A DNA stretch of 33,246 nt, taken from an uncultured Bacilli bacterium (GTDB taxonomy: Bacteria; Bacillota_I; Bacilli_A; RF39; UBA660). Made by a program: the position numbers and the translations under genes. Shown here piece by piece: positions 1,696-33,246 of this stretch (position 1 is the stretch's first letter; every line of letters begins with the position of its first letter). The notes under the pieces were generated by a model. That model searched no databases and was not told the origin of the DNA. It saw only the letters and a list, made by a program, of their open reading frames with translations. Where the stretch lies: positions 1 through 33,246 of the forward strand of contig CALVVN010000012.1 in the NCBI GenBank assembly GCA_944363865.1, given 5' to 3'.

Positions 1696-1702
1696 GGTGA
1701 AA

Positions 1703-2359
1703 ATGACAAAAATAGATAAAATAGAAATACCAAAATATAGTATTTCAGAAGAAATAATGAATGGAATCACTCATGGTATAGGTAGTTTATTATCAGTTGC
1801 AGCATTAGTGCTTACAGTTGTTTTTAGTGCAATACATGGAAACCCTTGGGCAGTAGTTGCATCATCAATATATGGATCAACATTAATAATTTTATATACA
1901 ATGTCAACTATATATCATTCATTAAAAAGAAATAAAGGAAAAAAAGTTTTAAGAATTGTAGATCACTGCAGCATATATCTTTTAATCGCAGGAACGTATA
2001 CACCATATACTTTAGTTACACTTAATGGTGCTTTAGGTTGGACTTTTTTTGGAATAGTGTGGGGTAGTGCAATAATAGGAATTATCCTTAATTTAATAGA
2101 TATAAAAAAATACAAAAAAATATCAATGGCAATGTATCTATTGATGGGATGGGTAATAATTGCCGCGATTAAACCTTTGTATGAATCATTAGACATTCGA
2201 GGACTATGGCTATTACTATGCGGCGGAATAATATATACTTTAGGTGCAATATTTTATGGGCTGGGAAAAAAGCATAAATATATGCATGGCATATTTCATT
2301 TGTTCGTACTAGCTGCTAGTATTTTACATTTTTTTTCAATACTACTATACGTTATATAA
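1703..2359 (+). CDS. hemolysin III / PAQR family integral membrane protein
   Basis: EIMNGITHGIG, DHCSIYLLIAGTYTP and HLFVL motifs with about 7 hydrophobic spans. GAGGTG SD precedes ATG 1703. Confidence 0.8.
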   Translation: MTKIDKIEIPKYSISEEIMNGITHGIGSLLSVAALVLTVVFSAIHGNPWAVVASSIYGSTLIILYTMSTIYHSLKRNKGKKVLRIVDHCSIYLLIAGTYTPYTLVTLNGALGWTFFGIVWGSAIIGIILNLIDIKKYKKISMAMYLLMGWVIIAAIKPLYESLDIRGLWLLLCGGIIYTLGAIFYGLGKKHKYMHGIFHLFVLAASILHFFSILLYVI

Positions 2360-8096: not shown

Positions 8097-9071
8097 ATGA
8101 AGAAGTATATCTTAACATTATTAATTTCACTCATAATACCTTTAGAATTATTTGCATATTCTGAATATATAATTCCAGGCGGAGAAAATATAGGAATAAC
8201 AATAAATTCTAAAGGTTTAACTGTAGTAGGGTTTTATAAAGTAAATGATAAATTCATTGGAAAAGAAACATTAAAAGTAGGAGATATAATAACAAAAATA
8301 AATGGAATAGATGTAGAATCAATAAACGAAATGAGTGATTTAATTGCTCAAGAATTAGAAAATGGCAAAGTAAGTATAACAATAGAAAGAAACAACAAAG
8401 AAATAGAAACAGATTTGAACATAATTAAAGAGAATAATATATATAAGACGGGACTATATATAAAAGAAAAAATTAACGGAGTAGGTACACTTACATATAT
8501 AGATCCAGTAACTAAAATATATGGTGCATTAGGGCACGAAATCACAATGAATGAGACAAATAAAATTGTTGAAGTGAGAAACGGTAATATATATGAAAGT
8601 TATGTAAATAGTATAGATAGAAGTGCAGACGGGACAGTAGGTAGTAAAAACGCAACAATAGATTTTAAAAGCACTTTAGGAACCATCAAAGAAAATACAA
8701 AGAAAGGAATATTTGGTAATTATCAAGTAGATTTACCTAACACAGAAGTAGTTAAAGTTGCAAGTTTTAATGAAATTGATCTTGGAAAAGCTTATATCTA
8801 TACAACAGTAGACGGAGAAAACAAAGAAAAATTCGAAATTGAAATACTAAAAAAAGAAGAAAAAAGTATTGATACATCAAAAGCAATAAGTTTCAAAATA
8901 ACAGACACCAAATTATTAGAAGAAACGGGCGGAGTAGTGCAAGGCATGAGTGGAAGCCCAATAATACAAGATGATAAAATAATTGGCGCAGTAACACATG
9001 TTGTAGTAGATGATGTAACAAAAGGTTACGCTATATTTATTAGAACAATGTTAGAAGAGGGAGAAAATTAA
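8097..9071 (+). CDS. spoIVB: SpoIVB peptidase (S55 family, PDZ domain)
   Basis: GVGTLTYIDPVTKIYGALGHEI, SIDRSADGTVGSK and the catalytic-Ser context GGVVQGMSGSPI. PDZ-like LKVGDIITKINGIDVESI. N-terminal signal/anchor. Confidence 0.85.
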   Translation: MKKYILTLLISLIIPLELFAYSEYIIPGGENIGITINSKGLTVVGFYKVNDKFIGKETLKVGDIITKINGIDVESINEMSDLIAQELENGKVSITIERNNKEIETDLNIIKENNIYKTGLYIKEKINGVGTLTYIDPVTKIYGALGHEITMNETNKIVEVRNGNIYESYVNSIDRSADGTVGSKNATIDFKSTLGTIKENTKKGIFGNYQVDLPNTEVVKVASFNEIDLGKAYIYTTVDGENKEKFEIEILKKEEKSIDTSKAISFKITDTKLLEETGGVVQGMSGSPIIQDDKIIGAVTHVVVDDVTKGYAIFIRTMLEEGEN

Positions 9072-10658: not shown

Positions 10659-10687
10659 ATATGGTATACTTTTTTTGGGTGGTTAAA

Positions 10688-11779
10688 GTGAAAGTTGTTG
10701 TTGGAATTAGTGGTGGAGTAGACAGCGCCGTTGCAGCTTATTTGCTTTTAAAAGAAGGGTACGATGTAGTAGGCTTATTTATGAAAAACTGGGATAGTAA
10801 TATTAATAATGATCCCGAAGGAATTACCGAGGACATTTGCCCTCAAGAACAAGATTACATTGATGCAAAAGAAGCGTGTGATATTTTAGGAATACCTTTA
10901 TATAGAGTAGATTTCATTAAGGAATATTGGGATAACGTATTTTCATATTTTTTAAAAGAGCTTGAAAAAGGTAGAACTCCTAATCCAGACATCATGTGTA
11001 ACAAATATATTAAATTTGATTTATTTTTAAAAGAAGCAAAAAAATTAGGTGCTGACAAGATAGCAACCGGTCATTACGCACGAAAAGAAGGAAATAAATT
11101 ATTAAGAGGTATAGATTTAAATAAAGACCAAACTTACTTTTTATCACAGGTAAAAGTTGATAACTTTAAAGACGTATTATTTCCAATCGGAGACTTAACT
11201 AAAGCACAAGTTCGTGAAATAGCTAAAAAAATCGGATTAAATGTTGCTGAGAAAAAAGATAGTACAGGAATATGCTTTATTGGAGAAAGGCATTATCAAC
11301 AATTTGTACAAAATTATTTAAAAGGAAGAGAAGGGGACATTATAGATATAAGAACTAATGAAGTTATTGGAAAACATCAAGGGCTAATGAACTATACTAT
11401 CGGTCAAAGAAGAAATGTTGGTTTAAGTGGCGATAAACAAAGACATTATGTTTGTGGCAAAAATGTAAAAGATAATATTTTATACGTTGCCTTTGGAGAA
11501 GATAGCGAATACCTAATAAGTGATGAAGCCGTAATAGAGGATATGAATTATATAAGTAGTAATAAACCTACATTTGCAACATGTAAGTTTAGATATAGGG
11601 GAGAAGATGTTCCAATAAGAATTGAGTATATTAGTGATAAAGAAATAATAGTAAAATATGACTCAGCAAAATCAGTTACACCTGGACAAGCATGTGTTAT
11701 ATATCTTGGAAATGAATGTATAGGTGGAGGAATAATAAAAGAAGTTAGAAAACAAGGAAAAAAACTTTGGTATTTATAA
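10688..11779 (+). CDS. mnmA: tRNA 2-thiouridine(34) synthase
   Basis: KVVVGISGGVDSAVAAYLL (PP-loop), FMKNWD, TPNPDIMCNKYIKF, ATGHYAR, KDQTYFL, DSTGICFIGE. GTG 10688 follows a GGGTGG SD. The track ATG at 10661 has no SD. Confidence 0.9.
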   Translation: MKVVVGISGGVDSAVAAYLLLKEGYDVVGLFMKNWDSNINNDPEGITEDICPQEQDYIDAKEACDILGIPLYRVDFIKEYWDNVFSYFLKELEKGRTPNPDIMCNKYIKFDLFLKEAKKLGADKIATGHYARKEGNKLLRGIDLNKDQTYFLSQVKVDNFKDVLFPIGDLTKAQVREIAKKIGLNVAEKKDSTGICFIGERHYQQFVQNYLKGREGDIIDIRTNEVIGKHQGLMNYTIGQRRNVGLSGDKQRHYVCGKNVKDNILYVAFGEDSEYLISDEAVIEDMNYISSNKPTFATCKFRYRGEDVPIRIEYISDKEIIVKYDSAKSVTPGQACVIYLGNECIGGGIIKEVRKQGKKLWYL

Positions 11780-19735: not shown

Positions 19736-19758
19736 AATAGGTATTAATTACCTATTTT
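19734..19758. terminator. bidirectional hairpin spanning the convergent rarA and tcdA stops
   Basis: AAAATAGGTA (19734-19743) pairs with TACCTATTTT (19749-19758), with a 5-nt loop. Confidence 0.55.
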
Positions 19759-20421
19759 TAATGTGTCTTTAACAATAATGTTACAAATTAGGAAACCAGC
19801 AATTGCAGGGACATATACAACTGACCCAAGTTCCTTTATACTGCTTGGTTTTTCTTCACTATAAACTACTTTTACATATTTTTGTTCCAAGATTGATAAC
19901 TCTTTTCTAATTTTTCTAGCTAATGGACAATATTTGGTTTTATCAAGTGTAGATATTTTTAAAAGTGTGCCATCTATTTTTTTAGCTGTTCCCATTGAAG
20001 AAATAATTTTAATATTAGAGTTATAACAATACTTTATTAAAGCAATCTTTGTATTTAATGTATCGCAAGCATCAATAACGTAATCAAAGTTATCATTAAT
20101 ATAATCGCGTACATTTTCTTTATCTAAAAATACATTAATAGTAGCAACTTGAACTGAAGGATTAATCATTAACGCACGTTTTCTTGCTTCTTCTACTTTT
20201 AAATTACCAATATTTGTACTATTAGAAATAATCTGTCTATTTAAATTAGTACTATCAATAACATCAGAATCAATAATAGTTATTTTTTTTACTCCTAGGC
20301 GAACTAAACCTTCTAGAGTGTACCCACCTACTCCACCTACACCAATTAAACAAATATTTAATGATGAAATATAACGAGCATTATCTTTTCCAATTAATTT
20401 TTCTAATCTATCTAAATTCAC
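19744..20421 (-). CDS. tcdA: ThiF/MoeB-fold E1-like enzyme, tRNA threonylcarbamoyladenosine dehydratase (YrvM/TcdA-like)
   Basis: LIGVGGVGGYTLEGLVRLGVKKITIIDSDVIDSTNLNRQ. Its position next to rarA matches Bacillus yrvM-yrvN. The start is uncertain. GTG 20421 follows GGTGAG (20431-20426). The track TTG at 20442 would overlap the 3' end of the upstream RNA. Confidence 0.75.
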   Translation of the reverse strand: MNLDRLEKLIGKDNARYISSLNICLIGVGGVGGYTLEGLVRLGVKKITIIDSDVIDSTNLNRQIISNSTNIGNLKVEEARKRALMINPSVQVATINVFLDKENVRDYINDNFDYVIDACDTLNTKIALIKYCYNSNIKIISSMGTAKKIDGTLLKISTLDKTKYCPLARKIRKELSILEQKYVKVVYSEEKPSSIKELGSVVYVPAIAGFLICNIIVKDTLKIGN

Positions 20422-20444
20422 AAAACTCACCAATCCAAACAAAA

Positions 20445-20615
20445 ACCCAAAGATACGACTGCCGTTTAAATAAATCTCGCCACAGACGAGGTGGTAGGCA
20501 ACATAATGCCATTAGGATTCTTAGTAAAACTAAGCATTCAACACAGCACATTAATTATGCCCCCAAGAATATAAAATAGTCGGTTTATTTGTGACGACAA
20601 TCATTATCTTCAGGT
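20445..20615 (-). ncRNA. ssrS: candidate 6S RNA (bsrA/ssrS-like), about 171 nt
   Basis: A GC-enriched island in an otherwise AT-rich intergenic region. TGGTATAAT lies 7 nt upstream of A20615. The 5' and 3' ends pair into a long closing stem: ACCUGAAGAUA 20615-20605 with UAUCUUUGGGU 20455-20445, GAUUG with CAGUC, and AAAUAAA with UUUAUUU. A central asymmetric loop carries a 3'-side hairpin (20490-20476). An apical hairpin sits at 20534-20520. A U-run follows. The slot is syntenic with B. subtilis 6S-1 RNA. Confidence 0.6.
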
Positions 20616-20621
20616 AATTTT

Positions 20622-20630
20622 ATTATACCA
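20622..20630 (-). promoter_or_regulatory. extended -10 promoter TGGTATAAT for the candidate 6S RNA
   Basis: The minus strand reads TTTGTGGTATAAT, with TATAAT at 20627-20622. The -35 element is weak. Confidence 0.5.
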
Positions 20631-20673
20631 CAAAATCATAAAAAATATACTAAAAGCGTAAAGACTTTACAAA

Positions 20674-21447
20674 TTATTTCTTATTGATATAACTAATAAT
20701 TGTGTTTAAATTAACTCCTTTAGTACTATTCATAATATTTATATCAGCGCCTTTATAATAACTATTTAATAGTTTAATGAGTTCTTTCATCTCTTTTCTT
20801 TTTCCCATTTGTTTTTCTGTCACTTTGCAAGCACAATCAATAAACTTTAAATTATTATAATTTGCCCAAGAAATAATGTCTTTTTCTCTAACGTAATATA
20901 AAGGCCTGATTAATTCTAAAGGTTTGAAATTAACTGAAGAAAGTTTTGGCATCATAGTTTTAAACTCACCATTATAAATCATTGACATCAGTATTGTTTC
21001 AACAACATCATCAAAATGATGGCCAAGTGCAATTTTATTACAGCCTAACTTCTTTGCTTCACTATAAAGTGCTCCCCTTCTTTTCCTAGCACATAAATAA
21101 CAAATATCTTTTTCCCCTTTAATCACGTCAAAAATATTACTATTAAAAATGTGAAGATTGATATCTAAAATATCAGCATTTTTTAAAATTAGCTCTTTAT
21201 GATTTTCTTTATAGCCTGGGTCCATCAAAATAAAACATAATTCAAATTTCATTTTTCCGTGTATTTGAAGTTCTTCCATACATTTTGCGAGTAAAAATGA
21301 ATCTTTTCCCCCACTTATACAAACAGCAATTTTATCGCCATCAGAAACAAGCTCATATTCTTCTATACTTTTAATAAAACTGCGCCATATCTCTTTCCTA
21401 TATTTTTTTATTATACTATTTTGAATCTTCTGCTTCTCTTCTTTCAT
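20674..21447 (-). CDS. ttcA: PP-loop ATPase, TtcA-like tRNA 2-thiocytidine synthase family
   Basis: VCISGGKDS (SGGxDS), CYLCARKRRGALY, IALGHHFDD, CACKV (Cys motifs for Fe-S). Confidence 0.7.
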   Translation of the reverse strand: MKEEKQKIQNSIIKKYRKEIWRSFIKSIEEYELVSDGDKIAVCISGGKDSFLLAKCMEELQIHGKMKFELCFILMDPGYKENHKELILKNADILDINLHIFNSNIFDVIKGEKDICYLCARKRRGALYSEAKKLGCNKIALGHHFDDVVETILMSMIYNGEFKTMMPKLSSVNFKPLELIRPLYYVREKDIISWANYNNLKFIDCACKVTEKQMGKRKEMKELIKLLNSYYKGADINIMNSTKGVNLNTIISYINKK

Positions 21448-29242: not shown

Positions 29243-30668
<1,426 letters not shown>

Positions 30669-30723: not shown

Positions 30724-31602
30724 CTATAATTTTTTTAATTCTAAACTTAATCTATGTAATAATCTTCTATTGGTATTTAACCTTCTAGTTCTACCCGGGA
30801 CAGAATTTACTTCACAAACGTAATATTCTTTTCCATCATACAATATATCAACTGCACAGTACCATAGTCCAACAGCGTTAGCTGCATCTACAGCTAATTT
30901 TCTAACTTTTTCGTCTCTTTCTTTTAATCTTAATACTTTCGCGCCTAAACTATAATTTGTTCTAAAATCATTTTCATTTACTCTAATTGCTGAACCTTGA
31001 TATAAACCATTAATTACATAACTTCTTAAATCTTTCCCCTTTGATGTATCAATAAACTCTTGAAACATACATATTCCTTTAAATTGTGACAAGGCCATAT
31101 TAAAATCACTAGAATTATTTACTAAATATATATCTTTACCTTTAGAGCCAAATGAAGGTTTTATTACAAACTTCTTACTTCCCATTAATAATACAACATC
31201 TACATAATCAAAATCTTTTCTATTTACGCCACAAGAAAAATATATAGTCTTAGGTATTTTAATATTATTTTTAGTAAGTACTTGATAAGTTTTAAGTTTA
31301 TTTCTCGAAATAGCCATAGACTCACTATTATTAAACACTTTTATTCCTAATAATTCAAATTGTCTTGCTAAATATAAGTCATATTTCTTAAAAAATACTA
31401 TTTTAGGGAATTTTTTTATTTCTTCTTTATTTAAATAAATTTTATTAGTTGCCCCATCTGTTATAATACTAAAAGATGAATCTGATAAATATCTGACATC
31501 TATATTAAGTTTATTTTTAGCATAATTAACTAATGTATTTATTGTCCCTTTTTTTAATTTTTTTTCATACATTTCTTTGCTATAAATTACCCAAATATCC
31601 AT
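30724..31602 (-). CDS. RimK-family ATP-grasp ligase (alpha-L-glutamate-ligase-like)
   Basis: It aligns by eye with RimK along its whole length: ARQFELLGIKVFNNSESMAISRNKLKTYQVL, FVIKPSFGSKGKDIYLV, FQEFIDTSKGKDLRSYVING, NDFRTNYSLGAK, AVDILYDGKEYYVCEVNSVPG. Its SD (AGGAG) lies in the last codons of the upstream ORF. Confidence 0.8.
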   Translation of the reverse strand: MDIWVIYSKEMYEKKLKKGTINTLVNYAKNKLNIDVRYLSDSSFSIITDGATNKIYLNKEEIKKFPKIVFFKKYDLYLARQFELLGIKVFNNSESMAISRNKLKTYQVLTKNNIKIPKTIYFSCGVNRKDFDYVDVVLLMGSKKFVIKPSFGSKGKDIYLVNNSSDFNMALSQFKGICMFQEFIDTSKGKDLRSYVINGLYQGSAIRVNENDFRTNYSLGAKVLRLKERDEKVRKLAVDAANAVGLWYCAVDILYDGKEYYVCEVNSVPGRTRRLNTNRRLLHRLSLELKKL

Positions 31603-31603
31603 A

Positions 31604-33175
31604 TTATTCTCCTATATCTTTTTTAATTTCTTTTACCAATTGTTCATTTGGAATTATTATATCAGCGGTTTTGTTATTAAATCCTATTATTACAAAACCA
31701 TTTTTATTTAATTCATCAAATACTTTATCATTTTTTACTTTATCTATAGCAGTGTCATATATTTTATTAAGGGTTACAAAAGCTTTATAATCAAATTCTT
31801 GTTGATTCTTATCATAATAAAGTGCATTTAAAATTTTCTTTATTAACTCAACTAGTTCAATAGAATTTAATCTAGTTTTAACATTTCTAACTTCGACTAA
31901 TTTTTTATCTAAATAATTAACCCAAAGATATTTACTACTAATAGTTCTTTGATATTTACAATATTCTTCAAAATCCCAAATAAACTTATATTGCTTGTAT
32001 ATATTTTCTTCAAAATAACTTTCTTTTTCGCTTAATAAAGCCATTAATTTTTTGTGAGATTCAATAGGATTTGTTATGTCGTATTGATTAAAATTCATAT
32101 GTATACCACAATTCTTTTCTGGAGATACTTGTATTAAGCCTTTAGAAAAAATCATTATTTCTTGTAAATTATTCCAAAACTCATAGATTTCTTCTACTTT
32201 TAAAGGGTCTAAAACTATTTCAAATGAATAATCCCCAATAATAGTACCGTCTTTAACAAAATATCCATTTTCGCCTACTAATTCTTTTATATTTGCAAGT
32301 AACTTTTTTGTAAACGAATATTTATCTCTTTCAAGAGTAACTGATACTTCTATTTCTAATCCTACTTCATCATAATCAATTTTATCTTTTAATTTTCTTT
32401 CATAACCAAACGCTGGTTTTATATCTAATACTTTATCAAATTTTGCTTCATAGTCAAATTTGTTCTTTTTAGTATTTCTGGATATTACTTTCTTACCTTT
32501 CTTATCTTTAAAAATAACTGATGTAAATTTAGATTTATTTTCTAAATAATTTATAACACCAAGTATGGCGTTTATTAAATTTGATACTTGTGATTTATCC
32601 TTATGAAAATTTCTATTCTTTTGTCCAATTTCTAGTTGAATTGATTTTACACCAGTATCTTTATGGATTCTAGAACATATAGTTTTATTATAGGATTTAT
32701 ATATTTTATCTACTGTGATTATTCCTAAATTATGTTTATTTAATTCCTTAATTATATCTTTCATGAGTATTCTATCATTATTTACATTTTTATAGTTATT
32801 TACACCTATATCTAAATCAGTAATTTCATTTATAGCTAAAGAATGAATATCAATAACATAATCAATATTATTACTTCTCACATATTTTTTTAAATATTCA
32901 TAATAAAAATTATTTTCTTTATCATAGTTTGGGTCATAATCAATCTCTTTATTAATATACATAACATGGCAATTTGATAATTCCGAAATTACTCTTATTA
33001 AAGAATATGTCAAATAATCTTTGCTTTTATTTTCACCATTTTTTTCGTAAGTAAAAGTATGAGGCGCTGACAACAAAATATTATTTGTTCCTTTTTTACA
33101 GTTTATTTCCTCAAATTTTACTAAATTTTTATCTTTTCTATGACTTTTTAAAAGTTTTCTAAATTCTTTTAGCAT
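31604..33175 (-). CDS. fusion protein: N-terminal FGase / poly-gamma-glutamate-hydrolase-like zinc amidohydrolase domain plus C-terminal GS-like amidoligase (Amidoligase_2-like) domain
   Basis: N-terminal half (track numbering): ILLSAPH42T, IDYDPNYD 81-88, VIDIH114S, IQLE185IG. C-terminal half: GLEIEVS 275-281, KDGTIIGDYSFEIVLDP 311-327, CGIHMNFN 359-366. AGGAG lies 9 nt before ATG 33175. The track ATG at 33184 is too close to that SD. Confidence 0.6.
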   Translation of the reverse strand: MLKEFRKLLKSHRKDKNLVKFEEINCKKGTNNILLSAPHTFTYEKNGENKSKDYLTYSLIRVISELSNCHVMYINKEIDYDPNYDKENNFYYEYLKKYVRSNNIDYVIDIHSLAINEITDLDIGVNNYKNVNNDRILMKDIIKELNKHNLGIITVDKIYKSYNKTICSRIHKDTGVKSIQLEIGQKNRNFHKDKSQVSNLINAILGVINYLENKSKFTSVIFKDKKGKKVISRNTKKNKFDYEAKFDKVLDIKPAFGYERKLKDKIDYDEVGLEIEVSVTLERDKYSFTKKLLANIKELVGENGYFVKDGTIIGDYSFEIVLDPLKVEEIYEFWNNLQEIMIFSKGLIQVSPEKNCGIHMNFNQYDITNPIESHKKLMALLSEKESYFEENIYKQYKFIWDFEEYCKYQRTISSKYLWVNYLDKKLVEVRNVKTRLNSIELVELIKKILNALYYDKNQQEFDYKAFVTLNKIYDTAIDKVKNDKVFDELNKNGFVIIGFNNKTADIIIPNEQLVKEIKKDIGE

Positions 33176-33246
33176 TTTCACCATCTCCTATTTTATCTGT
33201 AATAAACATCGCATCACCAAAGCTAAAAAATCTGTAATTATTCTTT
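33159..33246 (-). CDS. queA: 3' end of S-adenosylmethionine:tRNA ribosyltransferase-isomerase
   Basis: Hand translation gives KNNYRFFSFGDAMFITDKIGDGENAKRI*. YRFFS[YF]GDAM[FL]I is the conserved QueA C-terminus. The gene continues beyond the window. Confidence 0.7.
   Translation of the reverse strand, partial: KNNYRFFSFGDAMFITDKIGDGENAKRI

What the first reader, a model, noticed from the sequence alone, without database searches (positions are those of the whole stretch)
31604..33184. Unusual single-polypeptide fusion of a hydrolase-like and a ligase-like domain
The N-terminal ~210 aa carry the His/Asp/His/Glu pattern I associate with the N-formylglutamate amidohydrolase / phage poly-gamma-glutamate hydrolase clan: SAPH42T, DYDPNYD, VIDIH114S, LE185IG. 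After a Lys-rich linker (aa ~215-270), the C-terminal ~250 aa carry the three signature strands of GS-like carboxylate-amine ligases of the Amidoligase_2 type: GLEIEVS, DG..(x)..FEIVLDP and CGIHMNFN. As I recall it, Amidoligase_2 genes in Firmicutes usually neighbour an AIG2-like cyclotransferase. In Proteobacteria they usually neighbour a GATase-like peptidase. I do not recognise a covalent fusion to an FGase-like domain next to an ATP-grasp as a described architecture. Making and breaking an amide bond in one protein suggests editing or turnover of a conjugate, or a salvage step followed by re-ligation.
Basis: partly seen in the sequence, partly recalled or inferred. Interest (0 to 1): 0.7.

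Follow-up and report, generated by a model that had tools for sequence, protein, structure and literature searches.

The report
Hydrolase–ligase enzyme inside queuosine operon
This gene encodes a real, unannotated two-domain enzyme, one half built to cut an amide bond and the other to make one with ATP; in a group of uncultured gut Bacilli it is wedged between the two genes that install the tRNA base queuosine, which suggests an undescribed step in that pathway.

Summary
Window 31604-33184 (-) is a 526-aa gene. Its N-terminal domain is an FGase/poly-gamma-glutamate-hydrolase-type amidohydrolase (invariant H42, D112, H114, E185). A disordered Lys-rich linker joins it to a minimal glutamine-synthetase-like ligase whose closest structural matches are phage 'Amidoligase' proteins (invariant ExE, E, H, ExR). 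The window protein itself fails Pfam thresholds. The domain calls rest on confident AlphaFold models, fold searches and transitive homology.

The window's last 88 bases are the 3' end of queA, overlapping this gene. RimK and tgt follow with no terminator. Of 28 species-level genomes carrying the family (all uncultured low-GC Bacilli), at least 20 have the module between queA and tgt. In 14 of them the hydrolase is fused to QueA instead of to the ligase. All relatives are 'hypothetical', and I found no literature on the module.

Best reading, inferred rather than shown: reversible glutamyl-type amide conjugation on a queuosine-pathway intermediate, most plausibly the aminomethyl group of preQ1, with the hydrolase unmasking it for QueA. 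The main rival is gamma-glutamyl metabolism unrelated to queuosine; six species carry the fusion away from queA/tgt.

Verdict: new variant of known enzyme kinds in a new context. Interest 0.66.

The parts
33159..33246 (-). 3' end of queA (last 28 codons plus stop; the window cuts off the rest). It overlaps the start of the fusion gene by 26 nt.
   Evidence: The translation KNNYRFFSFGDAMFITDKIGDGENAKRI* is identical to the C-terminus of QueA in L007, the 92 %-identical locus. QueA identity in L007 comes from tblastn.
31604..33184 (-). Whole fusion gene, 526 aa: hydrolase domain, linker, ligase domain, tail.
32540..33184 (-). N domain (aa 1-215): FGase/PghP-type metallo-amidohydrolase fold with invariant H42, D84, D112, H114, E185.
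   Evidence: Fold hits 3a9l, 2odf, 5onj. Invariant residues. 36/60 relatives hit Pfam FGase. PghP catalytic residues from PMC6506827.
32435..32539 (-). Lys-rich linker (aa 216-250; net charge +8), predicted disordered at aa 220-241. It contains an insertion specific to the window's subclade.
31820..32434 (-). C domain core (aa 251-455): minimal glutamine-synthetase-like / Amidoligase_2-type carboxylate-amine ligase with E277-x-E279, R286, E322, H362-x-N364, E431-x-R433.
   Evidence: Model pLDDT 89.9, pTM 0.82. PDB hits are GS and GmaS. BFVD hits are phage amidoligases. Invariant residues.
31607..31819 (-). C-terminal tail (aa 456-526): small acidic alpha/beta extension, lower pLDDT, absent from the short C-domain clade. 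Role unknown.
30724..31602 (-). RimK-family alpha-L-glutamate-ligase-type ATP-grasp, 292 aa. It starts 1 nt after the fusion gene's stop. pI 9.7.
   Evidence: Present in the module in about 20 of 28 species.
29538..30665 (-). tgt (queuine/preQ1 tRNA-ribosyltransferase), 375 aa, with canonical TDSGGYQ, FDEC and GGVSVGE motifs.
   Evidence: Pfam TGT 1.3e-154. Motifs. No terminator between the fusion gene, rimK and tgt.

Best explanation
The gene encodes a bifunctional enzyme. The C domain is an ATP-dependent carboxylate-amine ligase of the glutamine-synthetase-like, Amidoligase_2 type. The N domain is a metal-dependent amidohydrolase of the FGase / poly-gamma-glutamate-hydrolase type. Together with a RimK-type glutamate ligase it forms a module co-transcribed between queA and tgt.

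Proposed mechanism:
1. The C domain activates a glutamate-type carboxylate as an acyl-phosphate. It couples this to a primary amine of a queuosine-pathway intermediate. The only such amine is the 7-aminomethyl group of preQ1, either as the free base or already on tRNA position 34.
2. RimK, where present, extends the conjugate with alpha-linked glutamate.
3. The N domain hydrolyses the amide and regenerates the free amine, which QueA then ribosylates. This would explain why the hydrolase is fused to QueA in half of the species.

The net effect would be a reversible glutamyl 'cap' that stores, retains or gates the Q precursor.

Shown: the gene is real. Both folds are supported. The catalytic residue sets are conserved. 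The gene lies in the queA-tgt operon. The alternative fusions exist.

Inferred: metal dependence, ATP use, glutamate as the acyl donor, preQ1 as the amine, and the order of steps.

Rough likelihoods: hydrolase plus ligase enzymology about 0.85; a functional link to the queuosine pathway about 0.55; the specific glutamyl-preQ1 cycle about 0.25.
For: - Domain identities: fold searches on models with pLDDT 85-90; recurrent or transitive Pfam hits to FGase, Gamma_PGA_hydro and Amidoligase_2.
- Catalytic competence: H42/D112/H114/E185 are invariant in 60 diverse relatives and in every architecture. ExE...E...H...ExR is invariant in all live C domains and lost in the paralogues. H...H...E corresponds to the PghP zinc ligands His40 and His103 and catalytic Glu165 (PMC6506827).
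- Operon: the queA 3' end overlaps the gene by 26 nt, rimK follows after 1 nt, tgt after 58 nt, with no terminator between them.
- Conserved linkage despite rearrangement: queA|N::C|rimK|tgt (window, L007-9); queA|N::C|tgt (L001, L010); QueA::N|C|rimK|tgt (14 species); queA|C|N::deadC|rimK|tgt (L018, L020); queA|N alone (L040).
- The hydrolase is tethered in turn to QueA, to the ligase, to a dead ligase copy or to RimK (P0060). This argues that these proteins act together.
- Chemical logic, from established knowledge: GS-like enzymes with known substrates activate a glutamate gamma-carboxylate for attack by an amine (GS, GmaS, PuuA, GCS2, PafA). FGase-clan enzymes cleave N-acyl-Glu/Asp or gamma-glutamyl amides. 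RimK-family enzymes add glutamate to a carboxylate.
- GmaS is among the fold hits.
- Phage amidoligase genes sit in nucleobase-hypermodification clusters (PMC8989533).
Against: - No biochemical data exist for any member.
- Six of 28 species (L011-L016) carry N::C away from queA, tgt and rimK, next to unrelated genes.
- A short C-domain clade sits by dtd and tadA without any N domain.
- All carriers are related Bacilli, in which ruvAB-queA-tgt...relA-dtd-hisS-aspS is an ancestral chromosomal region. Some of the linkage may therefore be inherited position rather than function.
- No preQ1 riboswitch or Q-precursor transporter lies next to the module.
- TGT has the ordinary small preQ1 pocket, so a bulky conjugate is unlikely to be inserted into tRNA. 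A cap-then-uncap cycle on tRNA looks futile unless it is regulatory.
- The window protein has Tyr at position 46, where more than 90 % of its family has His.
- The second zinc ligand of PghP (Glu45) has no obvious equivalent. Assigning that role to D112 is a guess.
- I could not inspect model coordinates to confirm that the residues cluster.
Confidence: 0.4

Rival explanations
1. The module writes and erases a new hypermodified wobble base. After QueA has acted, the ligase(s) attach glutamate (amide or ester) to oQ/Q on tRNA. This would be functionally analogous to glutamyl-queuosine made by GluQRS in Proteobacteria. The hydrolase would trim or remove the group.
For: The same operon and fusion evidence as the main explanation. 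RimK and the N domain are strongly basic, compatible with tRNA binding. ATP-grasp enzymes can form esters as well as amides (established knowledge: VanA, microviridin ligases). Phage amidoligases occur in nucleobase-hypermodification clusters.
Against: Q and oQ have no primary amine or carboxylate, so a GS-like amide ligase has no obvious handle. Fusing the eraser to QueA is less easily explained than fusing an unmasking step. Basic charge would equally suit polyglutamate binding.
Confidence: 0.15
2. The enzyme has nothing to do with queuosine. It makes and trims a gamma-glutamyl or oligoglutamyl compound, such as a small peptide, a cofactor tail or a polyamine conjugate. It sits between queA and tgt only because an ancestral insertion in that well-expressed operon was inherited.
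For: Six species have N::C in unrelated contexts without rimK. The short C clade lies next to dtd. The wider N-domain family is large (793 representatives at E<1e-10). It pairs with other glutamate ligases outside any Q context: the N::RimK fusion P0060, and a member next to a FolC-type Mur ligase in L041. All carriers belong to one bacterial class.
Against: The position between queA and tgt survives at least five independent rearrangements of the module itself. The QueA::N fusion is kept across lineages whose fusion proteins are in separate 50 %-identity clusters (P0038, P0054) and is present in 14 species. Gene overlaps indicate translational coupling with queA.
Confidence: 0.25
3. It is a Pup-like protein-tagging system. 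RimK adds C-terminal glutamates to a protein. The GS-like ligase joins that glutamate's gamma-carboxylate to a lysine, as PafA does. The hydrolase acts as the de-conjugase, as Dop does.
For: PafA and Dop are GS-like carboxylate-amine ligases, and RimK glutamylates the C-terminus of a protein (established knowledge). The C domain has a GS-like fold.
Against: No small tag-like ORF is conserved in the module. No proteasome or other partner is nearby. The best structural matches are phage amidoligases, not PafA/Dop.
Confidence: 0.05

Closest known systems
Amidoligase_2 (Pfam PF12224) proteins of phages and bacteria
   Same: These are the best structural matches of the C domain (E to 2.8e-8, probability 1.00, TMq about 0.5). 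Both are minimal GS-like cores of about 200-250 aa with an ExE / E / H / ExR residue pattern. Both are associated with other amide-handling enzymes. In phages they sit in nucleobase-hypermodification clusters (PMC8989533).
   Different: Sequence similarity is below Pfam's cut-off (no hit for the window protein; best relative 20.5 bits against 22). The context is queA-tgt. There are no viral relatives by sequence. I found no Amidoligase_2 member with a known substrate to compare with.
Poly-gamma-glutamate hydrolases PghP / PghL / YndL (MEROPS M86) and N-formylglutamate amidohydrolase family (PF05013; e.g. Atu2144, 2odf)
   Same: These are the top fold matches of the N domain. They share the His...His...Glu catalytic pattern. 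Relatives of the N domain pass the Pfam FGase threshold.
   Different: Identity is only 11-16 %. The early Glu zinc ligand of PghP (Glu45) is not conserved, while an invariant Asp precedes the second His (D112-x-H114). The protein is cytoplasmic and fused to a ligase or to QueA. It is not a secreted or phage-borne capsule depolymerase.
Glutathionylspermidine synthetase/amidase (E. coli Gsp; from my own knowledge)
   Same: One polypeptide carries an N-terminal amidase and a C-terminal ATP-dependent ligase that break and make the same kind of amide bond. It is the classic precedent for this logic.
   Different: The folds are unrelated (CHAP cysteine amidase plus ATP-grasp), and so are the substrates and the context.
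Gamma-glutamylation pathways for primary amines: GmaS, PuuA/PuuD (from my own knowledge; GmaS 7cql is among the fold hits)
   Same: A GS-like ligase caps a primary amine with glutamate and a dedicated hydrolase later removes it.
   Different: Those are catabolic pathways using full-size GS homologues and GATase-type hydrolases. The amine proposed here is a 7-deazaguanine.
Glutamyl-queuosine synthetase GluQRS (YadB), and ArcS/RaSEA in archaeosine synthesis (from my own knowledge)
   Same: They set a precedent for attaching an amino acid to a 7-deazaguanine base on tRNA, either as a final modification (GluQ) or as a transient intermediate (preQ0-lysine).
   Different: The enzyme families are entirely different (aaRS paralogue; TGT paralogue plus radical SAM). 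No homology to the proteins here.
LysX / LysW / LysK amino-group carrier system (from my own knowledge; LysX model TIGR02144 scores 93 bits on the neighbouring RimK, below its cut-off)
   Same: A RimK-family ligase attaches an amine substrate to a glutamate carboxylate as a protecting group, and a metallo-hydrolase releases it at the end.
   Different: No LysW-like carrier ORF is present here. The hydrolase family differs. A GS-like ligase is present in addition.

Membership tests
FGase / Gamma_PGA_hydro clan (PF05013, PF05908) | The protein itself scores above Pfam's gathering threshold | tested here: not met
   FGase E=0.14, 12.7 bits against 28.9, residues 109-189 only. The N domain alone gets no hit at E<=0.01.
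FGase / Gamma_PGA_hydro clan (PF05013, PF05908) | Transitive homology: clear relatives of the domain are themselves family members | tested here: met
   36/60 relatives (which match the A1 profile at about 1e-30 to 1e-51) hit FGase, best 1.8e-9. Three hit Gamma_PGA_hydro, best 1.3e-7. P0106 and P0122 exceed the FGase cut-off.
FGase / Gamma_PGA_hydro clan (PF05013, PF05908) | Same three-dimensional fold | tested here: met
   Top PDB matches are 3a9l PghP (E 9.8e-6, TMt 0.57), 2odf (TMt 0.54-0.56), 5onj YndL and 21dc.
FGase / Gamma_PGA_hydro clan (PF05013, PF05908) | Zinc-binding His/Glu/His plus catalytic Glu (PghP His40, Glu45, His103, Glu165; PMC6506827) | tested here: inconclusive
   H42, H114 and E185 are invariant and in the right order. 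No conserved acid lies 4-5 residues after H42. Invariant D112 may substitute.
FGase / Gamma_PGA_hydro clan (PF05013, PF05908) | Amide hydrolase activity | not testable with these tools
   Needs an enzyme assay.
Amidoligase_2 (PF12224) / GS-like carboxylate-amine ligases | Scores above Pfam's gathering threshold | tested here: not met
   No hit for the window protein. 7/30 family members hit weakly, best 0.0059. The best relative, P0043, scores 20.5 bits against 22. The short clade gets no hit.
Amidoligase_2 (PF12224) / GS-like carboxylate-amine ligases | Same fold as annotated amidoligases and as the glutamine synthetase catalytic domain | tested here: met
   In BFVD, 35 matches at E<=0.001, mostly proteins named 'Amidoligase enzyme', best 2.8e-8. 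In the PDB the top hits are GS type I and III and GmaS, probability 1.00.
Amidoligase_2 (PF12224) / GS-like carboxylate-amine ligases | GS-type metal and ATP residues on the core strands (ExE, E, H, ExR) | tested here: met
   E277/E279, E322, H362 and E431/R433 are invariant in all live members and replaced in the paralogues. Assigning roles by analogy with GS is an inference.
Amidoligase_2 (PF12224) / GS-like carboxylate-amine ligases | ATP-dependent amide formation | not testable with these tools
   Needs an enzyme assay.
RimK family (neighbouring gene) | Passes the curated family model | tested here: met
   TIGR00768 143.7 bits against 143.4. Pfam RimK 1.4e-28. No equivalog (MptN, LysX, RimK, CofF) reaches its cut-off.
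Queuosine biosynthesis / salvage pathway | Conserved operon linkage or fusion with signature Q genes | tested here: met
   At least 20 of 28 species loci lie between queA and tgt; two truncated loci (L023, L034) show only the tgt side; 14 have the QueA::N fusion; six do not fit.
Queuosine biosynthesis / salvage pathway | Acts on a 7-deazaguanine substrate or changes tRNA position 34 | not testable with these tools
   Needs biochemistry or genetics. No preQ1 riboswitch supports it.
Glutathionylspermidine synthetase/amidase-type bifunctional enzymes | CHAP amidase plus ATP-grasp synthetase domains | tested here: not met
   The domains here are FGase-like and GS-like. The resemblance is in logic only.

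The most novel reading that the evidence does not exclude
A clade of uncultured gut and rumen Bacilli runs an undescribed branch of the queuosine pathway. In it, a 7-deazaguanine intermediate (preQ1 free or on tRNA, or oQ/Q) is transiently or permanently conjugated to glutamate(s) by a GS-like amidoligase and a RimK-type ligase. It is de-conjugated by an FGase-like hydrolase that is often physically fused to QueA. That would mean either a new wobble-base derivative or a new precursor-storage or gating mechanism, and it would give the first substrate for an Amidoligase_2-type enzyme.
Probability: 0.35. Interest if true: 0.85.

Novelty: new variant of a known kind. Interest (0 to 1): 0.66.

Why it matters
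Queuosine is a micronutrient-like tRNA modification whose precursors are exchanged within gut communities. Recent comparative genomics states that Q metabolism genes remain to be found (PMC11130926). That kind of survey relies on Pfam-labelled neighbours and fusions. It would probably miss this module, because none of its hydrolase or ligase proteins carries a Pfam domain.

If the module acts on a Q intermediate, it adds a new enzymatic step or a new wobble-base derivative to a pathway thought to be complete in bacteria. I found no Amidoligase_2-type ligase with an established substrate, so it could also supply the first substrate for this large family, which is common in phage DNA-hypermodification clusters.

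The QueA::hydrolase fusion gives a concrete, testable handle. Even if the module proves unrelated to Q, it defines two unannotated protein families. One is the ligase family: 96 clusters, restricted to Bacilli. The other is an FGase-like hydrolase family with about 800 representatives that repeatedly partners with glutamate-adding ligases.

Tried and rejected
- **PDB by sequence:** profile or single-sequence searches with the whole family (A1), the C domain alone and the broad N-domain profile (A3) gave only spurious hits, namely glucanases, a reductase and a polymerase fragment.
- **NCBIfam, PHROGs, PADLOC:** nothing for the fusion protein, so a phage or defence-system origin is rejected.
- **Viral contigs:** 261 pattern matches, but none is a relative.
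- **Rfam on ten loci:** only tRNAs, and no preQ1 or other riboswitch. The tRNAs near L016 are Gln, Pro, Met and Leu, not Q-tRNAs.
- **Second profile search with the C domain at E<=10:** it enlarged the family to 96 clusters but reached no protein labelled PF12224.
- **Short C-domain clade:** it gave no better Pfam bridge.
- **600-680-aa proteins carrying the N domain:** their remainder is not related to the C domain by hhalign (probability 0.2).
- **422-aa neighbour in 'Mycoplasma sp. P36-A1':** an unrelated membrane protein, not an N::deadC paralogue.
- **Context of the N::RimK fusion P0060:** uninformative.
- **Charge and pI analysis:** it cannot separate tRNA binding from polyglutamate binding.
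- **Iyer et al. 2009 amidoligase paper:** the PMC id I recalled is not held, so statements about that paper rest on memory.
- **Considered and rejected:** a sequencing-frameshift artefact for the fusion (about 30 independent full-length homologues argue against it), and an enlarged TGT pocket that could accept a bulky conjugate (the motifs are canonical).
Full report
**1. The observation**

Window 31604..33184 on the minus strand is an ATG-initiated ORF of 526 aa. The gene is real. 38 further 90 %-identity clusters match it (E from 0 to 1e-24), and about 30 are full-length proteins of 456-527 aa with the same two-domain layout. A scan of one genome per species found the family in 28 species. 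The next gene on the same strand (30724..31602) is a RimK-family ATP-grasp (Pfam RimK 1.4e-28; TIGR00768 143.7 bits against a cut-off of 143.4). After it comes tgt (29538..30665; Pfam TGT 1.3e-154).

**2. What the two halves are**

A direct Pfam scan is nearly silent. FGase scores E=0.14 (12.7 bits, cut-off 28.9), there is nothing for Amidoligase_2, and NCBIfam gives nothing. Scanned member by member, the commonest weak hits across the 30 family members are:
- Gamma_PGA_hydro: 8 members, best 0.003
- Amidoligase_2: 7 members, best 0.0059
- FGase: 4 members, best 0.0071

An AlphaFold2 model built on the family alignment is confident (mean pLDDT 85.3). It shows two folded domains separated by a disordered segment at residues 220-241.

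*N domain.* Foldseek against the PDB ranks these first for the N-terminal half: phage poly-gamma-glutamate hydrolase PghP (3a9l, E 9.8e-6, TMt 0.57), the FGase-family protein Atu2144 (2odf) and YndL (5onj). An exhaustive HMM search of 1.84 billion representatives found 1213 proteins at E<=0.001 and 793 at E<=1e-10. Most of those listed are relatives of the N domain alone, typically stand-alone proteins of about 210 aa. Of 60 such relatives, 36 match Pfam FGase on their own (best 1.8e-9), and some exceed its cut-off. The only invariant residues across those 60 sequences (21-34 % identity to the window domain) are H42, D112, H114 and E185. In PghP/PghL the zinc ligands are His40, Glu45 and His103, and Glu165 is catalytic (PMC6506827). 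H42, H114 and E185 fit that order. The early Glu is not conserved here, and I suggest that D112 replaces it, which is an inference.

*C domain.* A second model of the C-terminal 281 residues is better still (pLDDT 89.9, pTM 0.82). Its PDB matches are almost exclusively glutamine synthetases of types I and III and gamma-glutamylmethylamide synthetase (E from 2.9e-4, probability 1.00). Against predicted viral structures the matches are overwhelmingly proteins named 'Amidoligase enzyme' (best E 2.8e-8, TMq about 0.5; 35 matches at E<=0.001). Residues E277-x-E279, R286, E322, H362-x-N364 and E431-x-R433 are invariant in all intact members. From established knowledge, this is the pattern of metal and ATP ligands on the core strands of GS-like ligases.

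By Pfam's own thresholds, however, the protein is a member of neither family.

**3.

The 88 bases at the window's edge (33159-33246, minus strand) encode KNNYRFFSFGDAMFITDKIGDGENAKRI*. This is identical to the C-terminus of QueA in the 92 %-identical locus L007, and it overlaps the fusion gene's ATG by 26 nt. rimK starts 1 nt after the fusion gene's stop and tgt follows 58 nt later. No terminator-like site lies between them. The window therefore reads queA-[N::C]-rimK-tgt.

I mapped QueA, the N domain, the C domain, RimK and TGT on all 28 species loci plus L001. The arrangements are:
- (A) queA | N::C | rimK | tgt: the window, L007, L008, L009.
- (B) queA | N::C | tgt, without rimK: L001, L010.
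- (C) N::C alone among unrelated genes (ffh, thyA-folA, glycosyltransferases): L011-L016.
- (D) QueA::N fusion | separate C (about 285 aa) | rimK | tgt: 14 species.
- (E) queA | C | N::dead-C | rimK | tgt: L018, L020.

Two further loci, L023 and L034, are cut off on the queA side and show only C followed by tgt. A further contig has ruvB-queA followed by a stand-alone N gene (L040). Junctions are mostly overlaps or gaps under 15 nt.

The N-domain catalytic residues are intact in every architecture, including QueA::N and an N::RimK fusion found elsewhere (P0060). The C-like domain fused behind N in class E has lost the ligase residues (K, N, L, S, T, R in place of E, E, R, E, H, N), while the neighbouring stand-alone C keeps them.

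The hydrolase is thus tethered in turn to QueA, to the ligase, to a dead copy of the ligase or to RimK. This is what one expects of proteins that work together.

**4. Distribution and annotation**

All carriers are metagenome-assembled genomes labelled Bacilli, Bacillota or 'Tenericutes'. Several records titled Muribaculaceae have the same low-GC Bacilli gene content and are probably mislabelled. A profile search with the C domain alone found 96 clusters. None has a Pfam domain and every name given is 'hypothetical protein'.

These include a second clade of about 235-aa C-domain proteins, one of them in the complete genome CP168083.1 ('Mycoplasma sp. P36-A1'). In that clade the gene overlaps the start of dtd and follows a tadA-like deaminase, with no N domain nearby. 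There are no viral relatives by sequence, no PHROGs or PADLOC matches and no riboswitch. Full-text searches combining queuosine with amidoligase, ATP-grasp, RimK or formylglutamate amidohydrolase found nothing relevant.

**5. How it probably works**

*Shown:* two catalytically intact domains of known chemistry classes, in one operon with queA, a RimK-type ligase and tgt.

*From established knowledge of the families:*
- GS-like ligases with known substrates phosphorylate a glutamate gamma-carboxylate and let an amine attack it (NH3, methylamine, putrescine, cysteine, a lysine side chain).
- FGase-clan enzymes hydrolyse N-acyl-Glu/Asp or gamma-glutamyl amides.
- RimK-family enzymes add glutamate to a carboxylate.

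All three enzyme types handle glutamate-type amide bonds.

*Inferred:* the only primary amine in the pathway between TGT and QueA is the 7-aminomethyl group of preQ1, which is also the atom QueA ribosylates. I therefore propose three steps. The C domain makes a glutamyl amide on preQ1 (free or tRNA-bound). RimK extends it. The N domain removes it just before QueA acts, which would explain the QueA::N fusion.

TGT in these loci keeps the canonical FDEC and GG[V/T]SVGE motifs. To my knowledge these are the Cys158 and Val233 positions of Z. mobilis TGT. So TGT probably does not insert a bulky conjugate. The cap would sit either on the free base, as a form of storage or retention comparable to folate polyglutamylation, or on tRNA after insertion, as a form of gating.

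I give about 0.85 to the hydrolase-plus-ligase enzymology, about 0.55 to a true link with queuosine and about 0.25 to this specific cycle.

**6. Rivals**

- (a) A GluQ-like hypermodification of Q or oQ, with the hydrolase as eraser (0.15). Q has no amine or carboxylate handle for a GS-like enzyme.
- (b) Gamma-glutamyl or oligoglutamyl metabolism unrelated to queuosine, with the operon position merely inherited (0.25). This is supported by the class C loci, the clade next to dtd, the restriction to a single bacterial class, and the wider N family's partnerships with RimK and a FolC-type ligase outside Q contexts. It is weakened by the position persisting through at least five rearrangements of the module and by the widely retained QueA fusion.
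- (c) Pup-like protein tagging (0.05). There is no tag ORF, and the best structural matches are phage amidoligases, not PafA/Dop.

**7. Comparison with what is known, and novelty**

The domains are divergent members of known fold classes. The architecture has a precedent in logic, but not in fold, in glutathionylspermidine synthetase/amidase. The capping logic resembles GmaS, PuuA/PuuD and LysX/LysK. Attaching amino acids to 7-deazaguanines has precedents in GluQRS and ArcS/RaSEA.

Three things appear to be new:
- the pairing of an FGase-like hydrolase with an Amidoligase_2-like ligase;
- its embedding in the queA-tgt operon;
- the QueA::hydrolase fusion.

I class this as a new variant of known kinds. 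It has a realistic chance (about 0.35) of marking an undescribed step or derivative in the queuosine pathway.

**8. Limits**

- There is no biochemistry for any member.
- I could not read model coordinates to confirm that the residues cluster.
- I could not survey whole genomes for the other que genes.
- The carriers are phylogenetically close, so synteny counts overstate independence.
- The residue roles in GS and TGT, and the comparisons with Gsp, Puu, LysX, GluQRS and ArcS, come from my own knowledge, not from tool results.

Noticed in passing
window 33159-33246 (-): The window's edge holds the last 28 codons and stop of queA, overlapping the fusion gene's start by 26 nt. The sequence is identical to the QueA C-terminus in L007.
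   Followed up: yes
window 33047-33049 (-), residue 46 of the fusion protein: The window protein has Tyr where more than 90 % of its own family has His (HxxxH). The 92 %-identical P0001 has His. The position is not invariant in the wider N-domain family, so the consequence is unclear.
   Followed up: partly
L018 6872-8167, L020 6867-8162, L005 8878-10176; also P0047, P0059, P0153, P0183 and the middle domain of P0040: Catalytically dead paralogues of the ligase domain exist. In class E loci, N is fused to a dead C while a live stand-alone C sits next door, suggesting a hetero-oligomer that recruits the hydrolase.
   Followed up: partly
L037 10001-10717 (CP168083.1, 'Mycoplasma sp. P36-A1'); L038 8001-8726: A short (about 235 aa) clade of the ligase domain lacks the C-terminal tail. 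Its gene overlaps the start of dtd (D-aminoacyl-tRNA deacylase), downstream of a tadA-like deaminase. This is another tRNA-related neighbourhood, with no N domain nearby.
   Followed up: partly
L041 6001-9162; proteins P0078, P0092, P0094 etc. (alignment A5): The wider N-domain family includes many 600-680-aa proteins: N domain, an unknown middle region and a faint CDC48_N-like tail. In L041 a split version lies between spoVID and a FolC-type Mur ligase. Function unknown. These proteins are not related to the amidoligase domain.
   Followed up: partly
L035 4362-5852 (P0060): An N-domain::RimK ATP-grasp fusion sits in an unrelated, uncharacterised context, flanked by paralogous genes of unknown function.
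   Followed up: partly
window 1697-2359 (+): A hemolysin-III family (PF03006) membrane protein. A Bifidobacterium breve member of this family was shown to transport preQ0/preQ1 (PMC11130926). Whether this copy belongs to that subgroup was not examined. It lies about 27 kb from tgt.
   Followed up: no
window 29243-29590 (-): A 115-aa single-pass membrane ORF overlaps the 3' end of tgt. ORFs of similar size follow tgt in L001 (117 aa) and L003 (102 aa). It occupies the place where yajC usually lies in Bacilli, but has no Pfam match.
   Followed up: no
window 19744-21447 (-): A ThiF-family gene and a PP-loop (ATP_bind_3) gene lie close together, with hisS-aspS just beyond and mnmA at 10661-11779. 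The window is rich in tRNA-related genes, as is typical of this chromosomal region in Bacilli.
   Followed up: no
window 8097-9071 (+): A SpoIVB-type peptidase S55 is present, so the organism is probably a spore-former despite its 25 % GC and its 'Tenericutes'-like relatives.
   Followed up: no
L008-L010, L015, L017-L020, L022, L027, L028, L033 (record titles): Several GenBank TPA MAG records carrying this low-GC Bacilli-type locus are titled 'uncultured Muribaculaceae bacterium'. This is probably a taxonomic mislabel.
   Followed up: no
P0039 (440 aa): A distant relative combines an N-terminal region containing an HExxH motif with a C-terminal FGase-like domain that passes Pfam PF05013 in the precomputed annotation.
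   Followed up: no
window 30573-30591: The only terminator-like hairpin in the operon region lies inside the tgt coding sequence and scores on both strands. It is probably a chance match.
   Followed up: no
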